A DNA stretch of 64,000 bases from Bacillales bacterium (GCA_016292035.1 JAEEZR010000012.1:5937-69936), one strand, 5' to 3'. Positions 42,261 to 60,829 are shown, counted from the first letter of the stretch. The notes: a model not told the origin generated them from the letters alone. Translations and numbers: made by a program.

Positions 42261-42270
42261 TACTTCCTCC

Positions 42271-43137: not shown

Positions 43138-43222
43138 ATTTCCTACTTTCTCTTATAATTTTACTATCTTTCTTTAGAAAAGTCTATTTTTTAATAAAAT
43201 AAAAAAGGCTTTTTAAGCCTTT

Positions 43223-43804: not shown

Positions 43805-45669
43805 TATTTATCATCCTTTTTAAATTCATTTACTATTTTACCAGTTACAGTACTGTTAAATGAGGAACTTATATTATCTTTTATTCCTTCTTTAGATAAG
43901 TTACTAAATATCTGGCTAGTACTTGATTGTCCAGCTACACTTCTATTGTTAGCTCCTGAAATAGTACTACTTGATAGGCCTGTTCTATGGTTTATGTACT
44001 GATCTACTTTTTGTATGTTGGACATGCTATTTTTTGTTTCTTTTTCATATGTATGTCTAGCACCTTTATTTCTATATTTTGAATATATAACGAGGAAGTA
44101 TATTACACCTGCTGCTAGAAAAACATAATCATATTCATAATCAACAAACATCATTGCAATTAATGCAATTAACTCTATTAGAGCAGATATACCAAAAAGT
44201 TTAGGCATATGAATAGGAACACTACCCATTGTTTCTTTTGTTCTAGCATTTACTGCTACATAGTGAAGTAATTGTTTATCACCTTTCTTTTCCATATAGC
44301 TATAAAGCCATACTGGAAGATAAGCTGATGCCCATTGTTGTCCTTTGACAGTTAATTCTTCTCTTTCCCATCTAACTCCTCTATCGTACTCTTCAATAGT
44401 ATCATTAGTTGAGTATCTTGCTATGTCTTTTGATTGAATCTCTACTACTGGTTTTAAGTCTTCAATATTAACATCTCTTTTTTCTGATGTATATCCTCTT
44501 AAGTAGTTAGAGTTATATTTAACACAGTTTTCTGTATCAAATGGCATTATTGCATTTATTATATTAGTTGTCTTTTCTTTGTTAGTGCTATCTAATTTAT
44601 CTTTAGAAGATTCCACTGATAAACCTTTTATAGCAATGTCAAAGTCTCTTTCAACATGATATACATCGGCATCATATCTAGTTTCACTATGATCTCCATT
44701 TTTAACTGTATATCTTCTTGTTTCTATTTCTCCTTCGCCTTTTAAATTAGCGTGTGCATTTATATCTACTAGCATATAAGGGAAATATACACCCATTATA
44801 TTTTGAGTAGTAAATTCTTCTTTAAACCTAGGGTTAGCAAAGAATTTTCTTTTGCCAACAAACTCTTCAATGCTTTTTTGAGCGTCTTCTTTAGCAACAC
44901 TAAATGGAAGAAGAGTATCAGGTACAGCTCCGTTTGGAATTGTATTATTTATAGATAATATGTTTCTGCACCAGTGACATTTGGCTTGGTTAGCACTTGC
45001 AGTATCTATTACTACTTGTGCTCCACAGCTTGTACATTTAAGTGTAATAACATCATTTGCATCAGCACTTATGTTTTGAGCACCTGATCCTATTATTTCA
45101 CCTTCCAATTTATTAACATCTTGTTCAAATACATCTAGTTTTTCTTGTTCAAATTCGCTTCTACAGTATCTACATTTTAATTTACCTGTTTTGACATTAA
45201 GTGATATGTCAGTAGCACCACAGAAAGGACATTTTACCTGTCCATCTTTAGCGCCTTCATCAGTTTTTACTACTTTTGTCTCTTCATTTGTTTTATTTTC
45301 TGCTTCTTCTGTAGAATTGACTTCTGATACAAGTGGTTTTGAGATTTTATCATAATCAATGTCTAAATTCATAGAATCTATTTTATAACTACTTATTTTT
45401 CCATTAATTATGTTCTTTAATTCCTCTTCATTAAAACTATCTTTAATATTTTCTAATGTTATCCCATCAGGATTTTTTGCCAAGAAGTCTGAAACATATT
45501 CATTTATAGAACTCCATATATCTGAAGAAATTATGTCATCAGATGGAATTTCTTTTCCTTCCTGTGGATTAATCTTTATATTTCCCTTAATAATAAATCC
45601 CATTAGGGCTTGATAGAAACTATCATTATAAGTTAAAGAAGAAGGAGATTCAAAATACATATCTTTCAT
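43804..45669 (-). CDS. Double zinc-ribbon protein with a C-terminal TM hairpin and a Ser-rich tail (YdjG-like)
   Basis: Two C-x2-C-x14-C-x2-C ribbons (VKCPFCGATDISLNVKTGKLKCRYC and LKCTSCGAQVVIDTASANQAKCHWC). TM hairpin LFGISALIELIALIAMMFV...FLAAGVIYFLVIY near residues 500-540. 621 aa. Confidence 0.5.
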   Translation of the reverse strand: MKDMYFESPSSLTYNDSFYQALMGFIIKGNIKINPQEGKEIPSDDIISSDIWSSINEYVSDFLAKNPDGITLENIKDSFNEEELKNIINGKISSYKIDSMNLDIDYDKISKPLVSEVNSTEEAENKTNEETKVVKTDEGAKDGQVKCPFCGATDISLNVKTGKLKCRYCRSEFEQEKLDVFEQDVNKLEGEIIGSGAQNISADANDVITLKCTSCGAQVVIDTASANQAKCHWCRNILSINNTIPNGAVPDTLLPFSVAKEDAQKSIEEFVGKRKFFANPRFKEEFTTQNIMGVYFPYMLVDINAHANLKGEGEIETRRYTVKNGDHSETRYDADVYHVERDFDIAIKGLSVESSKDKLDSTNKEKTTNIINAIMPFDTENCVKYNSNYLRGYTSEKRDVNIEDLKPVVEIQSKDIARYSTNDTIEEYDRGVRWEREELTVKGQQWASAYLPVWLYSYMEKKGDKQLLHYVAVNARTKETMGSVPIHMPKLFGISALIELIALIAMMFVDYEYDYVFLAAGVIYFLVIYSKYRNKGARHTYEKETKNSMSNIQKVDQYINHRTGLSSSTISGANNRSVAGQSSTSQIFSNLSKEGIKDNISSSFNSTVTGKIVNEFKKDDK

Positions 45670-45696
45670 ATTTTAATTTCCTTCTTTCTTTTGTTA

Positions 45697-46974
45697 TTAA
45701 TTATTTTCTAAGTATTGTTTTTTAGCTGCATCAAATTCTTCTTGTGATAGAACTCCTGCATCTAATAATTTTTTCATTTCAATTAATTTATCTGTAGCAC
45801 TTGCTGATGCTGCTACTGCACCTGCTTGCATTTGTTGACTTTGAGCTGCAGTTTGTTGAGCATTATTTGCATAAGCTCCTCCAGCCATTCCAGCCATGTT
45901 CATTCCCATGAAGCCCATCATAGCGCCATTTTCATTACCAGCTGCTGCTTTAAGAGCTTCTCCTTGGTATACTTGAGCCAATGATGGATTTTCTCTAAAT
46001 GCTGCACCCATTTCAGTAACTCTACCAATTTCAATTTTGTTAGATTGAACTTTCTTGTATTGTTCTTTAGTCTCTTCAGTGTAGTCAATACTACCTGCTG
46101 AAGCTTCAACTAAGATAATACCATATGTTGATAACCATCTACCATCGTTTTCGATAGCTGATGACATTGAAGCAGCAAACTTTTCTGGATGAGCTTTTAC
46201 ATATATTTTAGTGTCTGTTCCATGAATATTTGGATTGATTTCTCTTTGTTTAGCTAATTCAACTTCAGCTTCTGATGATAATAAAGCAATACCAGTTTCA
46301 AGATTCTTATTGAATGTATTCATTAATTCTCTTACTTTTGGTTCTTCATCATCATTCATATCAAATGGTTTAGCATTTGGACTTAAGTATTCATATGAAA
46401 CGAAATTTCTTATGAATAGTAATGGGTTAACGATTTGAACACCGAATGTACCATTAACTGTTGCGTCAGCTTGGATTCCCATATATGTATCCCACCAAGA
46501 TGTTGGTGATTGTGTTCCGAATGTAATACCAGTTATAGGTTTTAAATTAACATAGAATGCTAATTGTGTAGTTGCAGGAATTCCTCCAAATTTAAATTGT
46601 TCTTTTACTGCATCCCATCCACCAGCTATACCTTTTCCTAGTCCTTCACCTAAGAAGCTTGCTGAATTTGGATCATCTGTTCTAAATTCATAGTTTCCTG
46701 GTTCTGCAACACATCCAGTGATTTTTCCATCTTGGATAGTTACTAATGCATAGTTTTCTGGAACCATAATTTTACTTCCATTAGAAATTACATTATCGTT
46801 ACCATTAACGTTATGGTCTCCTCTTTCACCATTTCTTGTAACTTTTGTAGCTGGAGCTAATGCAATGTATGTTCCCATGTCTTCTCTAGGAACAAAGTAC
46901 TCCAACCATTCATTACCAAGTACTCCACCAGCAGCATCGCCGATTGTACCTACTAAATTCTTAATAAATCCCAT
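45697..46974 (-). CDS. SPFH/Band-7-family protein (Band_7_1-like, annotated in databases as virion-core-protein-like) with a C-terminal SHOCT domain (YdjI-like)
   Basis: 425 aa. The Gly/Ala/Met/Gln-rich segment and terminal DKLIEMKKLLDAGVLSQEEFDAAKKQYL match the SHOCT consensus. The N-terminal body resembles the Band_7_1 class found with PspA in B. subtilis (ydjI). Confidence 0.6.
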   Translation of the reverse strand: MGFIKNLVGTIGDAAGGVLGNEWLEYFVPREDMGTYIALAPATKVTRNGERGDHNVNGNDNVISNGSKIMVPENYALVTIQDGKITGCVAEPGNYEFRTDDPNSASFLGEGLGKGIAGGWDAVKEQFKFGGIPATTQLAFYVNLKPITGITFGTQSPTSWWDTYMGIQADATVNGTFGVQIVNPLLFIRNFVSYEYLSPNAKPFDMNDDEEPKVRELMNTFNKNLETGIALLSSEAEVELAKQREINPNIHGTDTKIYVKAHPEKFAASMSSAIENDGRWLSTYGIILVEASAGSIDYTEETKEQYKKVQSNKIEIGRVTEMGAAFRENPSLAQVYQGEALKAAAGNENGAMMGFMGMNMAGMAGGAYANNAQQTAAQSQQMQAGAVAASASATDKLIEMKKLLDAGVLSQEEFDAAKKQYLENN

Positions 46975-47067
46975 ATCTTTACCTCCTCGTATACTGAATT
47001 TATTATAGTACTTTTTTACTATTAACTTAATTTTATCATATTTTTTCTATTAACAATAGTTTTTTGT

Positions 47068-47104
47068 TAAAAATAGACATATCATTCGTCAATGATATGT
47101 CTAT
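47068..47104 (-). terminator. Strong rho-independent terminator: perfect 14-bp stem (atagacatatcatt/aatgatatgtctat), 4-nt loop, then TTTTT on the minus strand, directly after the stop of the 47109..48767 gene
   Basis: Inverted repeat at 47073..47086 and 47091..47104, loop cgtc. The A5 run at 47068..47072 gives the U-tract for the minus-strand transcript. It separates the zinc-ribbon island from the SPFH module. Confidence 0.7.
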
Positions 47105-47108
47105 TCTA

Positions 47109-48767
47109 TTATTTATTCTTTTGCCCAGTATAAATTAATTCACATTCGTCATTATAATATAAGTATGTATCTTTAGTTTCTATTCTTACATATCTTTCGT
47201 AATAATTAGCACCCCAGAATACCATATCTTTTGGAAACTTTTCTTGCTTACCTGTTACTAGATTGTAGAAATACTCTTCGTCTGTATCATTATCTGCATA
47301 CGCAATAAAATCACTTTCTGTCTTTTGAGATAAGTAATCAGTGTTAATCTCACGTTCAGATTTACCTGTTTTTGTATTAATAAGATAGCTCTTTTCATCT
47401 TTTCTACCTATTACATATGGTTTTCCTTTTGATTCAAGGTATTTATATACATATAAATCTATATATTCAATTTCATTCCATTCATACGGTACTACCACTG
47501 CTTCACCTTTGACAATTCCAATTTTTCCGTTATTATTTTGCCTTTTCATTTTTGTATATTCTTCCCACTTATCTATTTTTTCTTCTTTTTTTATGGTGCT
47601 ATAATTTACGAACTTTTTAGAATTGACATCAAGGTATTTATAATTATAATTCTTTGAATCATAGATTGATATATATCCTTTTGCATATATATCAATTCTT
47701 CCGTTTTCATCGGTAGTTTCATATGCTATTTGATCATTAGCTGCATATATTCTCTTAACGAAATCATAGTTTGAATCATGGATTTCAAATATATTATTAT
47801 CTTCATCTTCTATTCTTGAGTCTGTGAAGTCATATACTACTTTTCCTGTGTCACAACTGACTATAGCTCTTTTATCTTCTACGCGTACAATACAGTAGCG
47901 TTCTGTTAAATAACTACTTCTCACATCTGATTGTGTATAATCAAAGTAATCTCCATCTTGTAAGTCAGCTGTATATGTTATCTTTCCATCTTTAGTCATT
48001 ATACCAGCCTTTTTACCATCAGCTGATTCCCATTTTAAGTAATGTTGTTTTATTAATAATGATGATTTCTTTGAAACTTTTATCCCCTCTTGTGTTAGTG
48101 GTTTTAAAGACTTATCATACAGTCTTCCATCAATAATCCAGTTACCTGTTTCACTTTCTATTTCAATTTCATTTTCATACTTTCTGACTACATTTCCTTT
48201 TGTATCTATTATTTCTTTATTATCAAGTATTGCAGCGTAGTTGCCATTAAAATCGCTTGCGTATTCGTACTTTGGCTCTACTATTACTTTACCTTCTAGA
48301 TTTATATATCCAAATTTTCCATTGTTTAACACTCTTATAATCTTATCACTTGAAAAATTTGATAGTTCTTCTTTTTGAGAAAAAGGTTTTTTTATAACTA
48401 TATATGCAATAGCAGCTATTAATACTAGCACTATTACAATTGGCACTATAGGTTTCTTTTTTTGATTCTGATTATTGTTTACTCTTTGTTCATCTTGATT
48501 ACCATAAGCCGGTTGTGGATTAGCAGGTGCTGGGTTTTGTACTTGATTTGAATAAGTATTAGTTACCTCTGAGGCTGCCTGTTCACCATTAACTTGTGGT
48601 TCAGGTGTGGCAGCTATTGGTGCTGACACTCCCATATTATTTGCATTTTGATTGCTTAAAAAATTTGCTTGCGGAGTTTCAACTTGTCCTTCTTGTTTTT
48701 TTCCACAGAAAGGACAAAACTCTGCTTCGTCATTTATAAAATTATTACAATTATTACATTTTTTCAT
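47109..48767 (-). CDS. Zinc-ribbon single-pass membrane protein with a WG-repeat ectodomain
   Basis: MKKCNNCNNFINDEAEFCPFCG, a Pro/Gln/Asn-rich linker, and TM IVPIVIVLVLIAAIAYIVI. GKFGYINLEGKVIVEPKYEYASDFNGNYAAI fits the WG-containing repeat consensus (GkwGyId..Gk.vI.p.yd.a..F..G.A.v). 552 aa. Confidence 0.6.
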   Translation of the reverse strand: MKKCNNCNNFINDEAEFCPFCGKKQEGQVETPQANFLSNQNANNMGVSAPIAATPEPQVNGEQAASEVTNTYSNQVQNPAPANPQPAYGNQDEQRVNNNQNQKKKPIVPIVIVLVLIAAIAYIVIKKPFSQKEELSNFSSDKIIRVLNNGKFGYINLEGKVIVEPKYEYASDFNGNYAAILDNKEIIDTKGNVVRKYENEIEIESETGNWIIDGRLYDKSLKPLTQEGIKVSKKSSLLIKQHYLKWESADGKKAGIMTKDGKITYTADLQDGDYFDYTQSDVRSSYLTERYCIVRVEDKRAIVSCDTGKVVYDFTDSRIEDEDNNIFEIHDSNYDFVKRIYAANDQIAYETTDENGRIDIYAKGYISIYDSKNYNYKYLDVNSKKFVNYSTIKKEEKIDKWEEYTKMKRQNNNGKIGIVKGEAVVVPYEWNEIEYIDLYVYKYLESKGKPYVIGRKDEKSYLINTKTGKSEREINTDYLSQKTESDFIAYADNDTDEEYFYNLVTGKQEKFPKDMVFWGANYYERYVRIETKDTYLYYNDECELIYTGQKNK

Positions 48768-48776
48768 TTTTCCTCC

Positions 48777-51404
48777 TTATAAGCCCAAATTCTTTAAATC
48801 TTTTTCTAGCGATTCGCTCATTCTTATTACGCTTCCAGTCTCCGTATAGTAATCATTTGCTTCGGTAGCACATGAGCTTTTTTTAGTATTACATACCATG
48901 GTTAAATATCTTTTTGCTCCTGGGTGATTGCTGTCATATACAGCAATGAAATATTTATTATTATCATTGATATCTTGTATCATACTGATAGCATTTACTG
49001 CATGGTTTTCGCCCGAATAATTCCCACCTATTACAACTGGATCTTTTGCTCTTAGTCTATTTATTAGTGCACCTGTAAAATATATTCCGTTTTTCATTGT
49101 AACATCATTTATGTTTAATATGTCCCTCTTAACAACTTCAAACGAATTTCCTGATGACAGTACTTCTTTATACTTGTTCATTTGTTGAGAATGCATATGG
49201 TATATGCTTTTAAACAACTCTTTCTCATCTTGTGTTATTTGATTTGTTTCCGAAAGCTTACTTTCTAATAGTTTATAAACCTCATATTCATCATAATTAG
49301 GTCTGGAAGAAATACTTTTTGTTTCTATCTTATATATTCCTGAGTTTATCATTGTGTCTCTGTAGTCATTTGAAAGTTGTAAAACTCTATCAACTGGTTT
49401 TGGATCCCATCTATTTTGCTCTTCTTCTCCAAAAGCTGCTGATCCTACTGCATATTTTAAAATATTTGATGTTAGTTTATAATCATATAGATTCTTATAT
49501 GATGTTAAATGACTATTTGTTAATTTGTACTCTGGGGCTGTTGTACCATACGGATTGTCCTTGTTAACAAATCTTGTTGCTGCAGAAGTCTCGATTTCTC
49601 TGCTTGCTAAACTCATTGGTAATTTCTTCACATAATATAATTCTGCGAATAGAGCCATTCCATGGCAGTGGCCCCCCGAAACATCCGTAGTATAGTTATG
49701 AAACGAAAATCCATCTCTGCTTGCAGTAAATCCACTGTCTGCCACTAGCAAGCCTTCATATATTCCATCTCCATCTATGTCTACCAGCCCATCATTAACT
49801 GCTGTTTCTACCTTTTGAAGTGTTTCATCAAGTCCACTGACATCTGAAGAAGAATAGAATTCGCATCCAGTCTCTTCTGAAATTTCTTTTAGGTCTTCGT
49901 TCTTTGAGCCTTCACCAAATCCTACTGCACAGACTTTAGCTCTGTTTAGAGTAGCTTTATTAATTAGACTCTTTTTATCATATTTAAGGCTACTGTCTTC
50001 TCCGTCTGTGAGTAAGATTACAATTTTGTTATCTGTATCTGAATTAAATTCTTTTATTGATTTTTCAATTGCTTCACTTATATCAGTTCCTGCACTTCTA
50101 GTTATGAATGTTCCGTTCATTGCTGATACTTTATCTGATATTGTTTTATAATCTTGTCCAATGCCCACCAAAGATGCATAATCCGCTCTGAATTCAGATA
50201 CTCCAACACTGTATCCTTTATCTATAAACTTCTTTGATAATTCTTTAGTTAAATCAAATCTTCTTCCTTCAGTGTCTGAAGCTGATAATGGAGTAGCTGT
50301 TCCACCAAATAAAGTATCCCACCAACTTCCTGTATATTCTTCTCCAGTTATTTCTTTATATTGAGCATTAGAATACATGCTCCATGAATTATCTAAAACA
50401 AATAGCACTTCTGTTGTATTACTTTCTTTTACTTCGTCTTTATCTCCAACTACATACATTGAAAAGTGTTCTAAGTTCGCTGTTACTCTTTTACTATTCT
50501 TGTCTACTTTTGACTCAACTGGCTCATATGTGCCTTTTTCTACATTATAGTAATAAATAGTTAGATTCTCTTCTTTAATATTATACTTTGTTAACTCTTC
50601 ATCAGTATAGCTAATTGTCATCTCTATCTTATCTAGCTTTGCGTTTGAGTGTATAGAGTACAACTTATTTATTAGACCATTTTTCTTTGATATTGCTGTA
50701 TCATCTATGATGTTTGCACTTAATCCAGCTAAATTTCCTTTACCTGTTAAATTGATTTCCAAATTTTCATTCTTATAGTTATATGTTAAAGTTCTTTGTG
50801 AGTCATTAACGCCATCACCTTTTGAATCTGTTTTTAACGGATCTAGTTCTAACAGTACTTCATCATAATCACTTACTGTGTCCCCATCAGTGTCCTTCTT
50901 TAGCGGATCTGTCTTACTAACATTTAATTCGTAATAATCTGGGAGACCATCTAAATCTGTGTCTGACAATTCCGGATTAGTGCCTTTTTCTTTTTCTTCT
51001 TTATTAGTAAGGCCATCATTATCAGTGTCATCATTATCACTTAAAACAATTTCATATCCCGAACCTAGATCAGCAGTAAAATCTTTAATTACTTCTAATT
51101 TGATTTTTATTCTATCTTTTTTATATGTTGCTGTAATAGTACACGTTTTTCCTTTTTCTTTTGTTAAATCCCAAACTACTTCTAATTCGTTTTGAGTTAT
51201 TTCACCACATGTAGAATTAAACTTTACTTTTGTAGGGTCTTCGCCCTCTATAAGTGATACTTTTAGTTTTACTTTTACCGGTGTGACTATTCCGTCTTCT
51301 ATATCGGAGTAAGTTTTATCCCAGCTTATTGCTTTTGGACCAAAAAAGTAAAAATATGCGAAAATACCAGAAGCTATTAGTACTATTGCTAACAATATTA
51401 TCAC
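48777..51404 (-). CDS. Single-pass membrane protein with thrombospondin-type-3-like Ca-binding D-x-D-x-D-G repeats, a VWA domain with a MIDAS motif, and a C-terminal Cys/His-containing domain. The N-terminal zinc ribbon is detached by a frameshift (see 51407..51502).
   Basis: (V)IILLAIVLIASGIFAYFYFF TM. DTDNDGLTNKEE, DTDLDGLPDYYE and DTDGDTVSDYDE repeats. VLFVLDNSWSM (D-x-S-x-S MIDAS) and ILLTDGED. GGHCHGMA near the C-terminus. The ORF-track start is GTG. Confidence 0.6.
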   Translation of the reverse strand: MIILLAIVLIASGIFAYFYFFGPKAISWDKTYSDIEDGIVTPVKVKLKVSLIEGEDPTKVKFNSTCGEITQNELEVVWDLTKEKGKTCTITATYKKDRIKIKLEVIKDFTADLGSGYEIVLSDNDDTDNDGLTNKEEKEKGTNPELSDTDLDGLPDYYELNVSKTDPLKKDTDGDTVSDYDEVLLELDPLKTDSKGDGVNDSQRTLTYNYKNENLEINLTGKGNLAGLSANIIDDTAISKKNGLINKLYSIHSNAKLDKIEMTISYTDEELTKYNIKEENLTIYYYNVEKGTYEPVESKVDKNSKRVTANLEHFSMYVVGDKDEVKESNTTEVLFVLDNSWSMYSNAQYKEITGEEYTGSWWDTLFGGTATPLSASDTEGRRFDLTKELSKKFIDKGYSVGVSEFRADYASLVGIGQDYKTISDKVSAMNGTFITRSAGTDISEAIEKSIKEFNSDTDNKIVILLTDGEDSSLKYDKKSLINKATLNRAKVCAVGFGEGSKNEDLKEISEETGCEFYSSSDVSGLDETLQKVETAVNDGLVDIDGDGIYEGLLVADSGFTASRDGFSFHNYTTDVSGGHCHGMALFAELYYVKKLPMSLASREIETSAATRFVNKDNPYGTTAPEYKLTNSHLTSYKNLYDYKLTSNILKYAVGSAAFGEEEQNRWDPKPVDRVLQLSNDYRDTMINSGIYKIETKSISSRPNYDEYEVYKLLESKLSETNQITQDEKELFKSIYHMHSQQMNKYKEVLSSGNSFEVVKRDILNINDVTMKNGIYFTGALINRLRAKDPVVIGGNYSGENHAVNAISMIQDINDNNKYFIAVYDSNHPGAKRYLTMVCNTKKSSCATEANDYYTETGSVIRMSESLEKDLKNLGL

Positions 51405-51406
51405 TA

Positions 51407-51502
51407 TTAATTTTTATTTATTGGTTTTCTTTTTTTAGCGCCACATCCCGGACAGAATGCCGCTTCCTCTGGAATTGCTATTCCACATTTTTTACAGTTC
51501 AT
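51407..51502 (-). CDS. Stand-alone 31-aa zinc-ribbon mini-ORF (MNCKKCGIAIPEEAAFCPGCGAKKRKPINKN), the detached N-terminal anchor of the downstream VWA protein. Followed by TAA-TAG-TGA in its own frame.
   Basis: Same C-x2-C-x10-C-x2-C-G plus basic linker as the other island paralogs. It is one A short of being in frame with 48777..51404 at the A5 run 51411..51415. Confidence 0.5.
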   Translation of the reverse strand: MNCKKCGIAIPEEAAFCPGCGAKKRKPINKN

Positions 51503-51520
51503 ATTCTACTCCTTTTTATA

Positions 51521-53893
51521 TTAAACACTTTTTGCATTGTCCACAATTACTTGTGGGATTTCCACATCTCCAGCTTTATCATAATTTGAAAATTCTATTG
51601 TTGCTGTAAACAGTTCCATAGTATCTATCATATCAGAAAAATCATATTCTAGTTTTGTGATATAACCATTTTCTGTGTAGACATCTACATATACATCACC
51701 TTTTATTGCTGATGTATCTGCTTTTGCATCGTTCATTAAACCTTCAATATCTTTCTTACTCATTTTTACTTTATAATGGTTTTTTGATACTGTTTGGACA
51801 TCTTTCATGGTTGTTAACTGATTTAGTATTTTTTTTAAGTCTACCAGTTGCGATGTTCCTTTTTCTTTCCACCATGTATCTCCTCCGAAAGGTTGAGTCA
51901 TATAAGTTATCCCTGAATTGAAGTCATAATATAGCTTACTTGATAGTGTCATACCTAGAGTTGTATTATCGGAATCTAAGTATTCTTTTTGATGGAGTTC
52001 ATCAACTGTACCTTTTGAATGTGATTCAACTTCTATTCCAATTACTTTAGTGTGCATTGTTACTTCTATATTATAGTTTTTAAATGAAGTATTGTATTCA
52101 CTATTTTTTACTACCTTGCTGTTTTTTACGTCGATAGTATAACTATATGTAGTAGTTATGTCACCATTTGTTACTACTAGGTAAATGTTATCATAAGTTA
52201 CATACAAGGCAGTATCAACCTCTAGTTCACTTGATGTCTTTTTTAATTCCTTATAGTAACCATTTTTCTCTCCATAAAGAATTATAGTTAAGTATTCATT
52301 ATTATTTACTGATACTTTTAATTCAGTCTTTTCTCCTAATTTGAAGTAGTCAATAGAACCTTCTCCAATTACGATGTTATATGTTTTTTGTTCGTTAATT
52401 TCTTGCTTATCACTAATTCCCATGTTAGATATTAGTGACTTATTATCATAATTTTGGCTTAGTGTGTAGTATGCCAAATCATTTATTGTGTTAATTAATT
52501 CCTCTTTAGAAGCATTATTTCTTATGTATTTAAATGGTTTTTCTTGATAGTGGGCATTCATTAATATTTCAGCCCAGTTGCTTACATTCTGAGAGAATGA
52601 ATAATAATATGGGAAAATTCCATACCCAAGATAGCCTGATTTATTAGCAACATTTGCAAGGTTATTACTAGTTGCCTTCGTATATATTCCGGCCCAATTA
52701 TTTAGATAATTGTTAGTAGAGTTTACATTGCTAACTTTTACACTTGCAAAGTTTGCCATTCCTTCAGTTATTAATTCTGGTGAAGTACATCTATCTTTAG
52801 TATTAGCTTTGCAATATAGGTATTGCATGTGATGAAACAATTCATGATTAGCTAACTGAACTAAGCTATCTAAACCATCAGAAAAGCCTCTCTTGTTTAT
52901 AACAATATAAGGATAGTTTATTATGCCATCTTCATCTAGAATATCAAGAAACAATGATCTGTTAATCCATTTTTTTGCATCAACTTCGTCTTCATAAGAG
53001 GCTAGTGTGCTATCACTTCCAGTGTCATAAACATACACACTCATGGCAGTTTTTAATATGTCTTTAGGCATATTATTTTGTTCAAGTACTGTCTTTGCTT
53101 TTTTCCAATCCTCATTAAATACTTTGTTATCAACGTATGGACTATAAATGTATTCAATACCAAATTCCTGTTCATACATATTAACACTATTTTCTAATGT
53201 GTCAGATATTAGTTTTAACTGCTCCTGTGTAATTGCATCTTCTCCATCACTTGCATACCATATTAGGAAGTTATTTTTAGATGATAAATATACATTATTT
53301 AGTCTATGATTATATGTATTACTTTTATCTTCCTCGTTACTTAAGAATTGCACTTTATAGCTACTTTTAGAACTATTTGATTGTTGAACATTAGATTTTT
53401 CTTCACCAAGTGATACATTAATCAATAATTTATTCTCCAAATAAAACTTAACTATGTTTTCGTCTAGTTCATCGTAATGATTTTCTAGTAACTCTGTTGT
53501 TTCAAATTCACATCCTGAAGTGTGATAGTTATAGTCTGATTGATATTTGGAATTTAATTTTTCTGTTGAAAACTCTAAGTACACTAACTCAGTGAAATAA
53601 TCCTTTGTACTTAAATTTCCATTTTCATAATCTTTTTTTATTTTTTCTAGCGAGTTTAATTTTTCGGATTCAACTATAGTTTGGTTGTTACTATTGTTGT
53701 CCTTATTCTCATTATTATTTTCCGTTTTTTGAAGTATGAAGTACGCTAGCACTCCCGCAGCTATTATAACTAAAAGAACTAGCAAAATAATAATCTTGCT
53801 AGAGAATGATTTTTTTCTTTCAATTTTATTTCCGCAGTTTGGACAGAATTCTACATTATTATCTACCTGTGTGCTGCAATTACTACACTTCAT
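51521..53893 (-). CDS. Zinc-ribbon single-pass membrane protein with a large ectodomain containing an HExxH (zincin-like) motif
   Basis: MKCSNCSTQVDNNVEFCPNCG, a basic linker, and TM IIILLVLLVIIAAGVLAYFIL. NHELFHHMQY is encoded at 52826..52846 (HExxH at 52832..52846). 790 aa. Confidence 0.55.
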   Translation of the reverse strand: MKCSNCSTQVDNNVEFCPNCGNKIERKKSFSSKIIILLVLLVIIAAGVLAYFILQKTENNNENKDNNSNNQTIVESEKLNSLEKIKKDYENGNLSTKDYFTELVYLEFSTEKLNSKYQSDYNYHTSGCEFETTELLENHYDELDENIVKFYLENKLLINVSLGEEKSNVQQSNSSKSSYKVQFLSNEEDKSNTYNHRLNNVYLSSKNNFLIWYASDGEDAITQEQLKLISDTLENSVNMYEQEFGIEYIYSPYVDNKVFNEDWKKAKTVLEQNNMPKDILKTAMSVYVYDTGSDSTLASYEDEVDAKKWINRSLFLDILDEDGIINYPYIVINKRGFSDGLDSLVQLANHELFHHMQYLYCKANTKDRCTSPELITEGMANFASVKVSNVNSTNNYLNNWAGIYTKATSNNLANVANKSGYLGYGIFPYYYSFSQNVSNWAEILMNAHYQEKPFKYIRNNASKEELINTINDLAYYTLSQNYDNKSLISNMGISDKQEINEQKTYNIVIGEGSIDYFKLGEKTELKVSVNNNEYLTIILYGEKNGYYKELKKTSSELEVDTALYVTYDNIYLVVTNGDITTTYSYTIDVKNSKVVKNSEYNTSFKNYNIEVTMHTKVIGIEVESHSKGTVDELHQKEYLDSDNTTLGMTLSSKLYYDFNSGITYMTQPFGGDTWWKEKGTSQLVDLKKILNQLTTMKDVQTVSKNHYKVKMSKKDIEGLMNDAKADTSAIKGDVYVDVYTENGYITKLEYDFSDMIDTMELFTATIEFSNYDKAGDVEIPQVIVDNAKSV

Positions 53894-53915
53894 TCTTTTT
53901 CCCTACCTTTAGTTG

Positions 53916-54953
53916 TTAGTTAAACATGTTCATTATTCCGTTTAGTCCATCTGTTATAGAACTAGTAACAGCTGATGTAATTAGGTGCATTCCTAAATAA
54001 TATCCTGCTATTGCTAGAATTGCAAAGCATATAGAATTGAATAGTATTTTACTATCATTATTTTCAAATTCAAATTGTTCATTTACTAATGTAATAAATA
54101 TTGCTAAAGAGTACACTGCTGATGCAATTGTTAGTATCATTGATAGTGGTGCCCATATATATCCTAAAATTGTAGATACAAATAGTGAAACTGCTGCTGC
54201 TGGAAGTACTGCTACTGATGATATTGCTAGTAGTCTAGTAAACTTAGCTTGTTTTTTGAATATTAATCCAGCAACATAGAATACTATTGCAAGTGATAGT
54301 ATTATTCCTGCTCCCATTAATATACTTGTGAATATTAATTTTAGATATTCTACATTCTTAAGATTTTCGAATGATACAATTAGTGATTTAGTGCAGAATA
54401 AAGTAGAGCATTTAACAAATACTGCTGTTATTAATCCTCTTAATATATTTAATACTGCTATTACACCTGCTGTTATTCCAGCGAAAGTAAATAAAGTCTT
54501 TTTATCATCAAAGCTTTCTTCAGCTTCTTTATATTTGCTATTTGGTTTGATTACTGCATAAAGCATAAACATAAAGTAATCTTTTATAGCTGCAAATTTA
54601 GAAGTTGATACTGTTTGAGTAGCACTAGATACATTTACTTGTGGAGCAGATGGTGCTACATATTCTTTAGTTGGTTCAACCGCAGGAGCAGGATTAACCA
54701 CTTCTTCTACTGGTGTAGATGGTTTAATATTACTGTATTCATTTCTTACTTGTTCAGTTAAATCACTCATTATTTCTGTACGTGATTCTGGTTCAACTGG
54801 CGCTACTTGTTCTGCTACAGTTTGCACTTCAACAGTGTTTACTGTTTGTGCTGTTAAAGGGCTTCCACACTTTATGCAAAAGCTATTTCCTGGTGTGTTT
54901 TCATATCCACAATTATTACATTTCATTTTAATACCTCTTTCTTCAATAGCCAT
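53916..54953 (-). CDS. Zinc-ribbon protein fused to a Yip1-like multi-pass membrane domain. The likely true start is the internal MKCNNCG at 54926, which has an AGAGGT RBS.
   Basis: MKCNNCGYENTPGNSFCIKCG, a Pro/Val/Glu-rich linker, then five TM helices in a Yip1/DUF1282-like arrangement. Confidence 0.55.
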   Translation of the reverse strand: MAIEERGIKMKCNNCGYENTPGNSFCIKCGSPLTAQTVNTVEVQTVAEQVAPVEPESRTEIMSDLTEQVRNEYSNIKPSTPVEEVVNPAPAVEPTKEYVAPSAPQVNVSSATQTVSTSKFAAIKDYFMFMLYAVIKPNSKYKEAEESFDDKKTLFTFAGITAGVIAVLNILRGLITAVFVKCSTLFCTKSLIVSFENLKNVEYLKLIFTSILMGAGIILSLAIVFYVAGLIFKKQAKFTRLLAISSVAVLPAAAVSLFVSTILGYIWAPLSMILTIASAVYSLAIFITLVNEQFEFENNDSKILFNSICFAILAIAGYYLGMHLITSAVTSSITDGLNGIMNMFN

Positions 54954-54972
54954 GCTATGCTATTATGATTTA

Positions 54973-55002
54973 ATTATATTATATAGCAATATAGCTTGTA
55001 AA
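54973..55002 (-). promoter_or_regulatory. Candidate sigma-A promoter (TTTACA -N18- TATAAT on the minus strand) in the 64-bp gap between rlmH and the first zinc-ribbon gene
   Basis: -35 at 55002..54997 and -10 at 54978..54973, read on the minus strand. AT-rich background makes chance matches likely. Confidence 0.3.
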
Positions 55003-55017
55003 CAAAAAACATACCAT

Positions 55018-55455
55018 TTACTTATGATATGTTTCATTATTCATTATTTTAAATGCTCTATATATTTGTTCTAGAAGTATTATTCTAAATAATCCATGTG
55101 GAAATGTTAATCTTGAAAAAGATATTAATTTATTTGATAGGGCTTTTATTTAACTATGTATACCATCAGAACCACCTATTATAAATGTTATATTTGAGTT
55201 TCCATTTATTAGATTATTATTTATTAAATCTTTAAATTCTATAGTATTTAATGTTTCTCCTTCGATTGCTAATGATATTATATAATCTTTATTACTTAGG
55301 TGCTTCTTTATTTCTTCTTTTTCTTCATTTATATTGGAGTCTTTTAGTTCGATTATCTCTATCTTGTGATATTTAGTTAATCTTTTTAGATAATCATTTA
55401 CTGCATCTTTTAGATAATCTTCTTTTAATTTTCCTACTACTATTATTTTTATCAC
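55018..55455 (-). pseudogene. rlmH: 23S rRNA (pseudouridine1915-N3)-methyltransferase RlmH interrupted by an in-frame TAA at 55150..55152. N-terminal 101 codons at 55153..55455; the C-terminal 43 codons continue in the same frame to the TAA at 55018..55020.
   Basis: The N-part MIKIIVVGKLKEDYLKDAVNDYLKRL...ITFIIGGSDGIHS is followed in frame, after TAA, by [43 protein letters not shown]. This aligns residue for residue with the SPOUT C-terminus of RlmH ([35 protein letters not shown]). Start overlaps the upstream MBL gene (ATGA). Confidence 0.7.
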
Positions 55456-56207
55456 TTTGATACCTCCAAGATGCTAGTTTCTGAAGCACATTCTTTTACT
55501 TTGAAGTTTACTTCATTTTCCTTTAGTATTCTATTTACTGTTTTAAGTGCTATGTCTGGAGTGTTATTAGTTTCTGAAAGGTGCGCGAGTATTACTTTTT
55601 TTGTGTTTGGGCCTATTATTCTAGATAGATATCCTGCTGCTAATTCGTTTGATAAGTGGCCTTTATCGCTCACTATTCTTTGCTTTAGTATTTCTGGATA
55701 TGGTCCTTTCTTTAACATTTCAGGATCATGATTGCTTTCAAATATGTAGTATGTTTTATCAGTAATTAATTTAAAGTATTTATGATTAATGTATCCAGTA
55801 TCTGTTATATAAACTAGACTTTCACTATCTTTTTCTATCAAGTATCCATTTGATGTAATTGCATCATGGCTTGTAGGTATTATTTTTATAGTAGCTCCTT
55901 TTATAAATATTTCATCTTCCAGATATATACTATCTTCATATTTTCCTAGTAATTCTTTTTCTATTTCTTTGCTTATATAAAGCATTGGTTTTACTTTATT
56001 AAGCAAGACTTTAAGACCACTCGTATGGTCTGAGTGGTCATGTGTTATTAGAACTAGTTCTATATCTTTTATATCGACATCTATTTCGTTTAGTCTTTCT
56101 CTTATCTTATTGTAAGAAATTCCTGCATCTATAAGAACTTTAACACTTCCTAAGTCCACATATGTGCAGTTTCCCTTTGAGCCACTAGCTAGTACTACTA
56201 CTCTCAT
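55452..56207 (-). CDS. MBL-fold metallo-hydrolase (YycJ/WalJ-like)
   Basis: HxHxDH motif (ITHDHSDHTSG). 251 aa. Conserved position upstream of rlmH, as in the Firmicute walJ-rlmH neighbourhood. Confidence 0.8.
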   Translation of the reverse strand: MRVVVLASGSKGNCTYVDLGSVKVLIDAGISYNKIRERLNEIDVDIKDIELVLITHDHSDHTSGLKVLLNKVKPMLYISKEIEKELLGKYEDSIYLEDEIFIKGATIKIIPTSHDAITSNGYLIEKDSESLVYITDTGYINHKYFKLITDKTYYIFESNHDPEMLKKGPYPEILKQRIVSDKGHLSNELAAGYLSRIIGPNTKKVILAHLSETNNTPDIALKTVNRILKENEVNFKVKECASETSILEVSK

Positions 56208-57706
56208 TAGTTATAAGCTAGTTTAAATGGATCCATGTGTTGTCCATAGTATTCAACTTGGAAGTGTAAGTGAGCACCAAAAGAGTATCCTGTGTTACCC
56301 ATGTATCCAATTACTTGTCCTTTACCAACTATAGTATTTACTGATATTCCACTTGCAAATCCACTCAAGTGCATGTATTTTGTAACATATTCTTCGTTGT
56401 GTCTTAAGTGAATATAGTTTCCTTCAGTACTATTGTATCCTACTGATATGATAGTTCCTGTTTGAGCAGCATATATTGGTGAACCATAACCAGTTCCTGA
56501 TATGTCTATTCCTTTGTGGAAACCGTTTATACCTAGCTCTAGGTCTACTCTGTATCCGTAGTCACTTGTAATTACGTATGGTTTGTTTGTTGGCCAGTAC
56601 CATCCACCTGTGTCTCCTAGATAGTGTAGTGGAAGTCCACCTTTTACTACTACCTCATTTATTACTGGTGTTTTTACTAGTGTTTCAAGAGGCACTACCT
56701 GAGTCATTTGACCGTTTATAGTTTCAATATAGTATGATACTACACTTTCTCCATCAGATCCTTTTTGCTCAGTATAAGTTGTACCTGCTAAAAGTTTATC
56801 ATTATATCTAACTTCTTTTGAGTGTTGTACTTTTTTCTTTTCTATAAGATTCTTTTCTACAACTATTCCTATTATTGGATTTACTAGTCCAACATTTACT
56901 TCTTGTCCACTATATAAAAGTGCATTTGGACTTGTTATGCTAGGATTAACTATTAAGAATTCAGTTACATTAAGTTGATAATTATTAGCTATTTCTTTTA
57001 TAGTTTCACCTGTTCTTACTGTATGTACTCCTGGTTTTTCAGTTGTTCCAAATAGTAAGTATTTAGATAGTTCATTAGCATCCTTGAATATTTGCTCTTT
57101 TACAGAAATATATTTTTCTTTAGTTGTTATTTCCTCTTTTATTTTTATATTTTCTATTCTGCTTAATGGTTCGTCACCAACACTTGCTGATACTTTTATT
57201 ACTTCTTGTGTCCCATCTATGTATGAAGTATATTCTTTGTCTCCTACAAAAGCTTTTATTGTATTCTCTACGGCTTTATCGAAGTCTTCTAGATGTATTA
57301 CATTTATTGTTTCATAATCATCTTCACTTCTCTTAATAGAGATTTCATATCCTTTTATTGTGAAACTTTCTGTTTCTTTAACTTTTTTATATACATCTTT
57401 TACATCATCTACCTCTCCTTCATAAGTAACTACTTTACTTATTTCTAGATCGTTAGGCGCATAGACTTTATCTACATTATATTCTTTTTTTATCTTTTCT
57501 TGTTCTTTATCTATTAATTTGTATAATTCATCTTTATCTTCTATTATACCGATTTTATTTCCAGATAAATATACTTGATAAACCGTAATGGGTCCGTTAT
57601 TTAGAGTTTTTCTATCAATGCCCATTATAAATATAAGTGCGGTTAATATTACTAAAAAAACCCCCAGCTTATAAATAGTTTTTTTATTCATTATTAATTT
57701 CATCAC
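56207..57706 (-). CDS. M23 family peptidoglycan DD-metalloendopeptidase with a LysM domain
   Basis: N-terminal TM, LysM (HTVRTGETIKEIANNYQLNVTEFLIVNP), and C-terminal M23 (FHKGIDISG...GAHLHFQV). 499 aa. Confidence 0.8.
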   Translation of the reverse strand: MMKLIMNKKTIYKLGVFLVILTALIFIMGIDRKTLNNGPITVYQVYLSGNKIGIIEDKDELYKLIDKEQEKIKKEYNVDKVYAPNDLEISKVVTYEGEVDDVKDVYKKVKETESFTIKGYEISIKRSEDDYETINVIHLEDFDKAVENTIKAFVGDKEYTSYIDGTQEVIKVSASVGDEPLSRIENIKIKEEITTKEKYISVKEQIFKDANELSKYLLFGTTEKPGVHTVRTGETIKEIANNYQLNVTEFLIVNPSITSPNALLYSGQEVNVGLVNPIIGIVVEKNLIEKKKVQHSKEVRYNDKLLAGTTYTEQKGSDGESVVSYYIETINGQMTQVVPLETLVKTPVINEVVVKGGLPLHYLGDTGGWYWPTNKPYVITSDYGYRVDLELGINGFHKGIDISGTGYGSPIYAAQTGTIISVGYNSTEGNYIHLRHNEEYVTKYMHLSGFASGISVNTIVGKGQVIGYMGNTGYSFGAHLHFQVEYYGQHMDPFKLAYN

Positions 57707-60774: not shown

Positions 60775-60829
60775 AATATCATTATATCAAATAATGGCTT
60801 ATTTATTTTTATTATTCTCTAACTTTACA

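What the first reader, a model, noticed from the sequence alone, without database searches (positions are those of the whole stretch)
51400..51510. Zinc-ribbon anchor of the VWA surface protein is detached by a 1-nt deficit in an A5 run
A 31-codon ORF (51502..51407: MNCKKCGIAIPEEAAFCPGCGAKKRKPINKN) encodes only the family's zinc ribbon and basic linker, and ends in TAA-TAG-TGA. The 875-aa VWA protein then starts at a GTG (51404) directly with the TM helix (IILLAIVLIASGIFAYFYFF).

Reading ...AAT AAA AAT TAA TAG TGA TAA with one extra A in the A5 tract (plus strand ttttt at 51411..51415) gives ...PINKKLIVIILLAIV... This exactly recreates the ribbon-linker-TM architecture of the neighbouring paralog (CPNCGNKIERKKSFSSKIIILLVLLVII).

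So this is a frameshifted fusion gene. Either it is a real inactivating or phase-variable indel, or a ribosomal -1 slip on A AAA AAT, or a homopolymer sequencing error. The M14 gene at 21859..21864 shows the identical one-A-short pattern, which favours systematic homopolymer undercalling but does not exclude biology.
Basis: seen in the sequence. Interest (0 to 1): 0.6.

Follow-up and report, generated by a model that had tools for sequence, protein, structure and literature searches.

The report
Surface-protein gene split by one-base deletion
One gene for a large membrane-anchored bacterial surface protein has lost a single A in a short A-run, which cuts off its small zinc-binding head; this looks like an ordinary, probably real and recent gene-breaking mutation, not a special mechanism.

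Summary
On the minus strand, a 31-codon zinc-ribbon ORF (51502..51407) has a strong ribosome-binding site. It ends two bases before an 875-codon ORF (51404..48777) that has no ribosome-binding site and begins inside a transmembrane helix. Adding one A to the A5 run (51415..51411) gives a 908-aa protein that aligns end to end with its family. 110 of 120 homologues carry the ribbon fused in frame.

I favour a genuine one-base deletion over homopolymer undercalling, for five reasons:
- The same A5 allele is on a separately assembled contig that differs at two other bases.
- The M14 lesion (A6, 21859..21864) is identical in contigs from two other assemblies.
- 510 runs of 5 nt or more, 50 of them 7 nt or more, lie inside ORFs that stay in frame.
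- 35 further ORFs were checked and none is cut short.
- rlmH carries a substitution-type nonsense codon, which homopolymer error cannot explain.

Nothing supports programmed frameshifting: the heptamer is poor, there is no stimulator and no downstream structure, and the split is absent from about 30 other family loci. The A5 tract is too short for classical phase variation. The large ORF is undecayed, so the break is recent or the ORF is still weakly translated by re-initiation at the GTG. No raw reads or close relatives were available. Interest is low.

The parts
51509..51514 (-). Shine-Dalgarno AAGGAG, 6 nt upstream of the ATG of the ribbon ORF. This is the translation start of the ancestral whole gene.
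   Evidence: Read directly; Shine-Dalgarno survey of all ORFs.
51407..51502 (-). 31-codon ORF encoding the N-terminal zinc ribbon (CxxC-x10-CxxC) and the basic linker KKRKPINK; ends at TAA 51409..51407.
   Evidence: Pfam Zn_Ribbon_1 E 6e-5 on the fused protein. PF13240 is recorded for the identical 31-aa gene on L001. The cysteines align with family columns that are at least 90% conserved.
51411..51415 (-). A5 run (T5 on the plus strand), the site of the inferred 1-nt deletion (ancestral A6 = AAA AAA, Lys-Lys). The two frames are both open only over 51413..51410.
   Evidence: The repair gives a 908-aa uninterrupted ORF. Family members read ...NKKLIII... at this position (P0014).
51398..51409 (-). 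Four consecutive stop codons in the ribbon frame (TAA TAG TGA TAA). They are a by-product of the ATA/TTA-rich transmembrane codons read out of frame.
48777..51404 (-). 875-codon ORF, GTG start 2 nt after the ribbon ORF's stop, no Shine-Dalgarno. It is the body of the gene: TM helix, beta domain, TSP3 calcium-binding repeats, beta-sandwich, VWA and C-terminal domain.
   Evidence: Identical to database protein P0001. AlphaFold model of the fused protein: pLDDT 85, pTM 0.77.
51342..51410 (-). Transmembrane helix (fused residues about 32-54). The model's helix spans residues 30-54 and so runs across the frameshift junction.
   Evidence: Helix 30-54 in the model. The repaired N-terminus aligns with the ribbon-linker-TM module of the 790-aa neighbour.
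50799..51038 (-). Bacterial thrombospondin type-3 (TSP3) Asp-rich calcium-binding repeats (fused residues about 156-235).
   Evidence: Pfam TSP3_bac E 7e-8. Many invariant Asp columns.
49794..50414 (-). von Willebrand factor A domain with an intact MIDAS motif (D371-x-S373-x-S375, T473, D500 in fused numbering).
   Evidence: Pfam VWA E 2e-13. Invariant columns. Foldseek hits to BatB and VWF A1. PDB sequence hits.
48780..49790 (-). C-terminal domain of about 337 aa with invariant H612-C613, H834, N837 and D857. Probably a distant papain-like (clan CA) cysteine-peptidase fold.
   Evidence: Invariant columns. Domain model pLDDT 89, pTM 0.89. Foldseek PDB hits are weak but are mostly cysteine peptidases (diacylglycerol kinases also recur at lower probability): TDE_0362 E 2.6e-3, IdeS, Pd_dinase, interpain A, staphopain.
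21859..21864 (+). Comparator lesion: an A6 run in the M14 carboxypeptidase gene, which is split into 21568..21891 and 21927..22976. One added A restores a 469-aa protein.
   Evidence: Intact 467-aa relative P0125, 88.7% identical. The identical lesion is in L002 and L003.
55150..55152 (-). Comparator lesion: an in-frame TAA inside rlmH (gene frame 55455..55018). This is a substitution-type nonsense codon, not a homopolymer indel.
   Evidence: The Pfam SPOUT_MTase match stops at profile position 110 of 154. Translation continues in frame after the stop with the conserved C-terminus ...[18 protein letters not shown]...YHK.

Best explanation
This is one gene, not two. Its ancestor encoded a type-II membrane protein with a cytoplasmic N-terminal zinc ribbon, a short Lys-rich linker and a single transmembrane helix. 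The large extracellular part carries TSP3 calcium-binding repeats, a VWA domain and a papain-like C-terminal domain.

In this lineage one A was lost from the linker's AAA-AAA (A6 to A5). This is most probably a real replication-slippage deletion in the DNA.

Inferred consequences:
- Ribosomes that start at the strong Shine-Dalgarno/ATG (51502) now terminate at TAA 51409 and release a 31-aa ribbon peptide.
- The 875-codon body has no ribosome-binding site of its own. It is either silent or made at a low level by termination-reinitiation at the GTG 2 nt downstream.
- That product would lack the ribbon. It would also lack every basic residue that normally lies on the cytoplasmic side of the helix.

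The body still has all family-invariant residues and no further lesions. The event is therefore recent, or the body is still under selection.

Shown here: the split, its unique repair, the family architecture and the reproducibility of the allele. Inferred: that the deletion is in the DNA and not an artefact, and how far the body is expressed.
For: Single-gene origin:
- The fused 908-aa protein covers 96-100% of homologues.
- 110 of 120 homologues have the ribbon in frame.
- C3, C6, C17 and C20 are at least 90% conserved in the family.
- Only the ribbon ORF has a Shine-Dalgarno sequence.

Real rather than artefact:
- Contig L001, from NCBI metagenome assembly GCA_016295205.1, carries the same A5 and differs from the window at two other bases.
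- The M14 A6 lesion is identical in contigs from GCA_016295205.1 and GCA_016295295.1.
- 510 runs of 5 nt or more lie inside in-frame ORFs, 50 of them 7 nt or more. The only frame breaks are in an A5 and an A6, not in the longest runs.
- The other ORFs screened against Pfam that match a family show full-length domain matches.
- rlmH is broken by a nonsense substitution. Genuine gene-inactivating mutations therefore exist in this window.

Recent or still functional:
- The MIDAS residues and the His-Cys/His/Asp columns are all retained. There are 875 codons without a stop in a 29% GC genome.
Against: - No raw reads are available and the sequencing platform is unknown.
- L001-L003 probably come from the same study, and possibly from the same assembly as the window. 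A platform-specific systematic error would recur in them.
- Both indels are single-A losses in A runs, which is the classic signature of homopolymer undercalling.
- Residual errors at about 2 per 64 kb are compatible with a polished long-read assembly.
- No relative above about 46% identity was found for this protein. An intact allele in sister strains could not be shown.
- Re-initiation at the GTG is untested.
Confidence: 0.65

Rival explanations
1. Sequencing or assembly artefact. The genome really has A6 (and A7 in M14), the consensus undercalled both homopolymers, and the gene is intact.
For: - Both frame breaks are one-A deficits in A runs.
- The downstream ORF is perfectly preserved.
- The supporting contigs L001-L003 carry accession prefixes (JAEEGJ, JAEEGK) that look like a single project, so they may share a platform bias.
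Against: - The same allele is found in separately assembled contigs, one of them with two other differences.
- Those assemblies contain more than 10 million very short contigs (510-970 bp here). I infer short-read data, where A5/A6 consensus indels are rare.
- 50 runs of 7 nt or more and 460 runs of 5-6 nt in ORFs are in frame. Undercalling should hit the longest runs first.
- A non-homopolymer nonsense mutation in rlmH shows that real lesions occur here.
Confidence: 0.2
2. Reversible phase variation. The linker A-tract acts as a contingency switch that turns the surface protein, or its ribbon tether, on and off.
For: - Two other family members also have a poly-A frameshift in the same ribbon-to-TM linker.
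- In L007 a 44-aa ribbon ORF overlaps an 878-aa body at an A9 run, which is one A too many.
- In L011 an A6 run is one A short.
- The protein is a surface protein, the class that is typically phase-varied.
Against: - A5/A6 is below the tract length (about 7-8 or more) at which slippage rates become switch-like. This is established knowledge of contingency loci.
- Both available observations of this locus are A5.
- In a sample of family loci found by motifs outside the linker, none of about 30 with a complete 5' end is split.
- The three cases were ascertained in a way that favours N-terminal breaks. L011's lesion lies within about 35 nt of a contig end.
Confidence: 0.06
3. Recoding. A programmed -1 ribosomal frameshift on A-AAA-AAT next to the stop codon, or transcriptional slippage on the A run, makes the fused protein from A5 DNA.
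For: - The shift needed is -1.
- The 0-frame stop lies immediately after AAA AAT, so a paused ribosome could slip.
- The body is undecayed.
Against: - The heptamer is T AAA AAT, not X XXY YYZ. P-site tRNA-Lys would re-pair on UAA.
- There is no Shine-Dalgarno-like element upstream.
- The downstream 87 nt fold no better than shuffled sequence (-12.3 kcal/mol, z = 0.37).
- A 5-nt run is too short for appreciable RNA-polymerase slippage (established knowledge: about 8-9 nt or more).
- The split is not conserved in any homologue of comparable sequence.
- The genuine programmed site in this window, prfB, has the full signal AGGAGG-n3-CTT TGA C.
Confidence: 0.04
4. An evolved two-gene arrangement. 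A free 31-aa zinc-ribbon peptide and a ribbon-less, GTG-initiated VWA protein are both functional and selected.
For: - Some family members naturally lack the ribbon and have their own Shine-Dalgarno sequence and start codon (L008, L009, L010, L024/L028, L031, L033, L042, L048).
- Others have a degenerate ribbon (P0033, P0090, P0110). The ribbon is therefore dispensable in some lineages.
- The stop and the GTG are only 2 nt apart, a spacing compatible with translational coupling.
Against: - Every natural ribbon-less member shown keeps a cytoplasmic tail with Lys/Arg directly before the helix. The GTG product would start inside the helix with none.
- There is no Shine-Dalgarno sequence.
- The arrangement differs from the fused form by exactly one base in a homopolymer. 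This is what a fresh mutation looks like, not an adapted operon.
Confidence: 0.05

Closest known systems
Homopolymer-slippage frameshift pseudogenes or split genes in bacterial genomes
   Same: A single-base loss in a short A:T run. The upstream fragment keeps the Shine-Dalgarno sequence and start codon. The downstream fragment is long, intact and has no ribosome-binding site. Sister lesions lie in the same window (M14 indel, rlmH nonsense).
   Different: Nothing essential differs. The only particular point is that the break falls exactly at a domain boundary, so it removes a discrete module (the ribbon) and leaves an otherwise complete protein.
Uncharacterised Firmicute family of 880-1100 aa proteins: Zn ribbon-TM-TSP3-VWA-C-terminal Cys/His domain (P0002-P0120, no curated name)
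   Same: 43-46% identity over 96-100% of the repaired protein. All invariant residues are kept. A Yip1-domain membrane protein is encoded directly upstream of the gene at one other locus (L012), and a ribbon-Yip1 gene lies two genes upstream in the window.
   Different: The reading frame is interrupted between ribbon and TM. The protein is also the most divergent member seen (46% identity or less to every other member).
BatA/BatB-type membrane-anchored VWA proteins (Bacteroides aerotolerance operon; PDB 3ibs, 4jdu)
   Same: A VWA fold with MIDAS on a membrane-tethered bacterial protein. These are the best structural hits to the model and there are weak NCBIfam hits.
   Different: The NCBIfam scores are far below the family cut-offs (36 vs 380 bits). 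Bat proteins lack the zinc ribbon, the TSP3 repeats and the C-terminal peptidase-like domain. This protein is not a member.
prfB (RF2) programmed +1 frameshift
   Same: Two ORFs of one gene in different frames, with a stop codon at the shift site. An example lies in this same window at 61733..62810.
   Different: prfB has a conserved Shine-Dalgarno-like stimulator and a CTT TGA C shift site, and it is universal among homologues. The VWA site has none of these and needs a -1 shift, not a +1 shift.
dnaX-type -1 programmed frameshift (A AAA AAG plus Shine-Dalgarno plus stem-loop)
   Same: A Lys-codon A-rich slippery region and a -1 direction.
   Different: The first heptamer position is T, the A-site codon is AAT and not AAG, there is no Shine-Dalgarno-like element and there is no stem-loop.
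Phase-variable homopolymeric tracts (contingency loci) in surface-protein genes
   Same: A mononucleotide tract near the 5' end of a surface-protein gene, where a change of tract length switches the frame.
   Different: The tract is only 5-6 nt. No length polymorphism was observed.

Membership tests
Zn ribbon-TM-TSP3-VWA family (uncharacterised, Firmicutes) | N-terminal CxxC-x(5-25)-CxxC zinc ribbon | tested here: met
   Present, but only in the detached 31-aa ORF. The cysteines align with columns that are at least 90% conserved. 110 of 120 homologues have it.
Zn ribbon-TM-TSP3-VWA family (uncharacterised, Firmicutes) | Single TM helix followed by the conserved W-[DN]-x-x-Y motif | tested here: met
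   IILLAIV...FYFFGPKAISWDKTY; W61 is invariant. Helix 30-54 in the model.
Zn ribbon-TM-TSP3-VWA family (uncharacterised, Firmicutes) | TSP3 repeats, a VWA domain with MIDAS, and a C-terminal domain with invariant His-Cys, His, Asn and Asp | tested here: met
   Pfam TSP3_bac 7e-8 and VWA 2e-13. D371/S373/S375/T473/D500 and H612/C613/H834/N837/D857 are invariant columns.
Zn ribbon-TM-TSP3-VWA family (uncharacterised, Firmicutes) | All modules encoded in one continuous reading frame | tested here: not met
   The frame is broken at 51411..51415. This is therefore a disrupted member of the family.
Programmed -1 ribosomal frameshift site | Slippery heptamer X XXY YYZ in the 0 frame | tested here: not met
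   The sequence is T AAA AAT.
Programmed -1 ribosomal frameshift site | Stimulatory element: an upstream Shine-Dalgarno-like sequence or a downstream stem-loop or pseudoknot | tested here: not met
   No Shine-Dalgarno-like sequence in the 20 nt upstream of the GTG start, which include the slip site, nor further upstream on reading. The downstream 87 nt give MFE -12.3 kcal/mol, z = 0.37; 117 of 200 shuffles fold as well.
Programmed -1 ribosomal frameshift site | The shift is conserved among homologues | tested here: not met
   Homologues are fused in frame. 0 of about 30 independently found loci are split at the linker.
Phase-variable homopolymeric tract (contingency locus) | Tract long enough for high-frequency slippage (about 7-8 nt or more) | tested here: not met
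   A5, with an inferred ancestral A6.
Phase-variable homopolymeric tract (contingency locus) | Tract-length polymorphism within or between populations | tested here: inconclusive
   Only two observations exist (the window and L001) and both are A5. A pattern scan of metagenome contigs allowing A4-A7 found nothing further. No reads are available.
Transcriptional slippage site | A/T run of about 8-9 nt or more on the template | tested here: not met
   The run at the only position where both frames are open is 5 nt. The A7 at 51436..51430 cannot rescue the frame, because TAA at 51416-14 blocks it.
Homopolymer sequencing artefact | Errors concentrated in the longest runs and not reproducible between assemblies | tested here: not met
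   The 50 runs of 7 nt or more inside ORFs are in frame. The lesions are reproduced in L001, L002 and L003. Direct inspection of reads is not possible with these tools.
BatA/BatB VWA proteins | Score above the NCBIfam family cut-off | tested here: not met
   36.1 bits against a cut-off of 380, and 28.5 against 350.

The most novel reading that the evidence does not exclude
The Lys-rich, poly-A-encoded linker between the cytoplasmic zinc ribbon and the membrane helix may be a recurrent, selectable breakpoint in this protein family. Single-A gains or losses there were seen in three unrelated members: the window (A5), L007 (A9) and L011 (A6). Such changes, or RNA-polymerase slippage on the longer tracts, would let cells toggle between a ribbon-tethered form, a ribbon-less form and a silent state. 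This would be a contingency switch acting on a domain boundary, not on the whole gene.
Probability: 0.07. Interest if true: 0.55.

Novelty: new member of a known kind. Interest (0 to 1): 0.2.

Why it matters
Mostly this is an annotation matter. The 31-aa 'gene' and the GTG-started 875-aa 'gene', both already in public protein collections as P0121 and P0001, are two halves of one disrupted gene and should be annotated as such.

Taken with the M14 indel and the rlmH nonsense codon, about 3 of 55 genes in this window are disrupted. That hints that this uncultured, spore-forming, 29% GC Firmicute lineage is accumulating inactivating mutations.

The wider family is large, uncharacterised and common in gut and rumen metagenomes (ribbon-TM-TSP3-VWA-papain-like domain). 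The natural ribbon-less and split members show that the cytoplasmic ribbon is not essential. That is a small clue to the unknown role of N-terminal zinc ribbons on Firmicute membrane proteins.

Tried and rejected
- **Close relatives with an intact allele.**
  - The full-length search gave nothing above 46% identity other than the window's own protein.
  - Two N-terminal-fragment searches gave nothing useful. Neither returned even the self-hit, so that tool is insensitive for this query.
  - The genome-contig scan found neither the source genome nor a sister species.
  - An exact-pattern scan of metagenome contigs allowing A4-A7 found nothing.
- **Exact look-ups.** The 875-aa product and the truncated RlmH are not on record.
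- **Source study.** Paper searches for the accession prefixes JAEEGI, JAEEGJ, JAEEGK and JAEEGL and for the GCA numbers gave 0 papers. Sample type and sequencing platform remain unknown.
- **Programmed frameshift.** Rejected: poor heptamer, no stimulator, no downstream structure.
- **Rescue by the upstream A7 run (51436..51430).** Rejected, because TAA at 51416-14 closes the large frame.
- **Alternative genetic code (TGA as a sense codon).** Rejected. prfB is present with a CTT TGA C site, 3 ORFs end in TGA, and the first stop after the ribbon is TAA.
- **Family-wide ribbon detachment.** Rejected. None of about 30 unbiased loci is split. L046 is a mid-gene duplication or assembly artefact, not a linker split.
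- **'Neighbouring paralog'.** True only for the first 52 residues.
Full report
**1. What is in the sequence**

- On the minus strand an AAGGAG Shine-Dalgarno (51514..51509) precedes ATG 51502.
- This ATG opens a 31-codon ORF, MNCKKCGIAIPEEAAFCPGCGAKKRKPINKN.
- The ORF stops at TAA 51409..51407, and TAG, TGA and TAA follow.
- Two bases after that stop, GTG 51404 opens an 875-codon ORF that runs to 48777. Its first residues, IILLAIVLIASGIFAYFYFF, are a membrane helix.
- The 20 nt before the GTG (ccaataaataaaaattaata) contain no Shine-Dalgarno-like sequence. By my motif check about 60% of the 55 ORFs listed in the window have one.
- The large frame is closed upstream by TAA at 51416..51414 and the ribbon frame is closed by TAA at 51409. 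The two frames are both open only over 51413..51410, inside the A5 run (51415..51411).
- Adding one A gives a 908-aa uninterrupted ORF reading ...KKRKPINKKLIVIILLAIV....

**2. It is one gene**

- The repaired protein finds 491 homologues. The best 120 are proteins of roughly 750-1100 aa that align over 83-100% of the query, at up to E 2e-224 and 39-47% identity.
- 110 of the 120 have CxxC-x(5-25)-CxxC at the N-terminus, fused in frame to a linker, a TM helix and a conserved W-[DN]-x-x-Y motif.
- In a 38-sequence alignment the four cysteines of the 31-aa ORF fall on columns that are at least 90% conserved: C3, C6, C17, C20.
- Pfam finds Zn_Ribbon_1 (residues 3-23), TSP3_bac and VWA in the repaired protein.
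- An AlphaFold model has pLDDT 85 and pTM 0.77, with a continuous helix over residues 30-54 that spans the junction.
- The exact 875-aa and 31-aa products are already in public collections as separate proteins, P0001 and P0121.

**3. Real deletion or homopolymer undercalling?**

I could not see reads. Five indirect lines favour a real lesion.

- (a) *The allele recurs.* The identical 31-aa ORF sits on a 510-bp contig of NCBI metagenome assembly GCA_016295205.1 (L001). That contig matches the window at 508 of 510 positions and has the same A5. Its two differences (window 51878 and 51837) show it is a separate assembly product.
- (b) *The M14 lesion recurs.*
  - One added A in A6 (21859..21864) turns the 107-aa and 349-aa fragments into a 469-aa protein.
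  - That protein is 88.7% identical end to end to the intact 467-aa P0125.
  - The same frameshifted 107-aa fragment is encoded on L002 (GCA_016295205.1) and L003 (GCA_016295295.1).
  - Both contigs are identical to the window apart from anomalous contig ends.
- (c) *Other runs are intact.* The window has 510 homopolymer runs of 5 nt or more lying wholly inside ORFs: 347 of 5 nt, 113 of 6, 48 of 7 and 2 of 8. Only one A5 and one A6 break a frame. Platform undercalling should hit the longest runs first.
- (d) *Other genes are intact.* Coding density is 94%. Every other ORF that matches a Pfam family shows complete domain coverage.
- (e) *A different kind of lesion exists.* rlmH has an in-frame TAA at 55152..55150, and its conserved C-terminus continues in the same frame. 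This is a substitution that homopolymer error cannot explain.

Caveats:
- L001-L003 probably belong to the same project, and perhaps to the same assembly, as the window. The platform is unknown.
- My inference of short reads rests only on the very large number of very short contigs.
- Two residual single-A deletions in 64 kb would be compatible with a polished long-read assembly.

I put 'real' at about 0.65-0.7 and 'artefact' at about 0.2.

**4. Recoding and phase variation**

- The shift required is -1.
- The 0-frame context is T AAA AAT TAA, which is not an X XXY YYZ heptamer.
- There is no Shine-Dalgarno-like stimulator upstream.
- The 87 nt downstream fold no better than shuffled sequence (-12.3 kcal/mol against a mean of -13.4, z = 0.37).
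- The same window contains a textbook programmed site for comparison. prfB runs from ATG 61733 through AGGAGG (61793..61798) and CTT TGA C (61802..61808), then continues in the +1 frame to 62810.
- The A7 run 15 nt upstream cannot rescue the frame, because of the TAA at 51416.
- A 5-nt run is too short for RNA-polymerase slippage or for switch-like DNA slippage. This rests on established knowledge of those processes.
- Both observations of the locus are A5.

**5. The family as a whole**

Three ribbon-less hits from the protein search turned out to be frameshift cases or candidates.
- L007 (P0066) has a 44-aa ribbon ORF (197..331) overlapping an 878-aa body (288..2924) at an A9 run, which is one A too many.
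- L011 (P0080) has an A6 that is one A short, in the Lys-rich linker. It lies within about 35 nt of a contig end.
- With the window, that makes three independent poly-A frameshifts in the same linker.

Two points weaken any claim that this is programmed.
- The protein list favours N-terminal breaks, because mid-gene breaks score lower and drop off the list.
- A sample of 43 loci was found through motifs in the VWA and C-terminal domains. It shows no linker split among the roughly 30 loci with a complete 5' end. It contains only one mid-gene duplication or assembly artefact, L046.

Several members naturally lack the ribbon.
- Ribbon-less members are L008, L009, L010, L024/L028, L031, L033, L042 and L048. 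Those whose upstream DNA was read (L008, L009, L012) have their own Shine-Dalgarno sequence and start codon.
- P0033, P0090 and P0110 have a degenerate ribbon.
- All of them keep Lys/Arg immediately before the helix.
- The window's GTG product would have none. That argues against an adapted two-gene arrangement.

**6. Likely consequence (inferred)**

- Translation from the strong start yields the free 31-aa ribbon peptide.
- The body is silent, or is made at a low level by termination-reinitiation at the GTG 2 nt after the stop.
- Such a product would lack the positive-inside determinant and so would be poorly or wrongly inserted.
- All invariant residues and 875 stop-free codons persist in a 29% GC genome. 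The lesion is therefore young, or the body retains some function.

**7. What the protein is**

- It is a type-II membrane protein: cytoplasmic ribbon, TM helix, a beta domain, TSP3 calcium-binding repeats, a beta-sandwich, then a VWA domain with an intact MIDAS.
- The best structural matches for the VWA domain are BatB and VWF A1.
- NCBIfam Bat scores are far below cut-off, so it is not a Bat protein.
- The C-terminal domain of about 337 aa has invariant His-Cys, His, Asn and Asp.
  - The domain modelled alone has pLDDT 89 and pTM 0.89.
  - Its only Foldseek PDB matches are weak (E 2.6e-3 or worse).
  - Most of them are clan-CA cysteine peptidases, with diacylglycerol kinases also recurring at lower probability (TDE_0362, IdeS, Pd_dinase, interpain A, staphopain).
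  - A distant papain-like fold is therefore likely but not proven.
- The gene lies in a run of genes that each start with a zinc ribbon.
  - 345 aa: ribbon plus Yip1.
  - 790 aa: ribbon-TM plus an HExxH motif.
  - This gene.
  - 552 aa: ribbon plus WG repeats.
  - These are followed by an SPFH/SHOCT protein.
- The 790-aa neighbour shares only its first 52 residues with this protein.

**8. Verdict**

The 'frameshifted fusion gene' reading is supported. The suggestion of systematic undercalling is not supported, though it is not excluded. Recoding and phase variation are unlikely. This is an ordinary kind of lesion, a homopolymer-slippage split gene, in a previously uncharacterised protein family. 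Interest is low. The only mildly novel thread is the recurrence of poly-A frameshifts at the ribbon-TM linker in three family members.

Noticed in passing
window 55018..55455 (- strand); stop at 55150..55152: rlmH (SPOUT methyltransferase) carries an in-frame TAA. The conserved C-terminus (...[18 protein letters not shown]...YHK) continues in the same frame after it. This is a nonsense substitution, and the third disrupted gene in the window.
   Followed up: partly
window 21568..22976 (+ strand); A6 at 21859..21864: The M14 carboxypeptidase gene is split by a one-A deficit. The repair gives 469 aa, 88.7% identical to the intact 467-aa P0125 from ENA. The identical lesion is on contigs from two other NCBI metagenome assemblies.
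   Followed up: yes
window 61733..62810 (+ strand): prfB (RF2) with its canonical programmed +1 frameshift: AGGAGG at 61793..61798 and CTT TGA C at 61802..61808. It shows that TGA is a stop codon here and serves as an in-window positive control.
   Followed up: partly
L007 197..331 and 288..2924 (Logan SRR27728184): Another family member has its zinc ribbon detached. A 44-aa ribbon ORF overlaps the 878-aa body at an A9 run, and removing one A fuses them. A9 is long enough for DNA or RNA-polymerase slippage.
   Followed up: partly
L011 about 25..36 (Logan SRR17418357): A third family member has a one-A deficit (A6, TCTAAAAAAGTC) in the Lys-rich linker upstream of the TM helix. It is close to the contig end, so it may be an end artefact.
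   Followed up: partly
L001 position 53 = window 51837 (- strand), in the 790-aa neighbour gene: In the sibling contig, TTA is replaced by TAA next to an A8 run. This truncates the 790-aa ribbon-TM protein in that assembly. It is either a strain polymorphism or a contig-end error.
   Followed up: no
window 48780..49790 (- strand): The C-terminal domain of about 337 aa has invariant His-Cys, His, Asn and Asp and matches no Pfam family. The model is confident (pLDDT 89). Its Foldseek hits are weak, the best of them to clan-CA cysteine peptidases such as TDE_0362, IdeS and Pd_dinase. It may be a new papain-like family fused to VWA.
   Followed up: partly
window 43804..54953 (- strand): A run of genes each begins with an N-terminal zinc ribbon: 345 aa (ribbon plus Yip1), 790 aa (contains HELFHH, an HExxH zincin motif), the VWA gene, and 552 aa (WG repeats). 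A 621-aa protein with weak internal zinc-ribbon matches and an SPFH/Band-7-SHOCT protein lie beside them. This recalls the ribbon/Band-7 membrane-stress neighbourhoods described for ydjFGHL in PMC11237479.
   Followed up: no
L046 2900..3900: A family locus with a roughly 70-codon stretch repeated in a different frame in mid-gene. It is a tandem duplication or an assembly artefact.
   Followed up: no
window 1..64000: This looks like an origin-proximal chromosomal region of a spore-forming, 29% GC Firmicute. It contains parA/parB, ychF, ftsH, tilS, ligA, pcrA, spo0A, spoVG, yabP, yabG, whiA, ftsEX, dnaB and rplI. The source genome was not found among the GTDB species representatives.
   Followed up: partly
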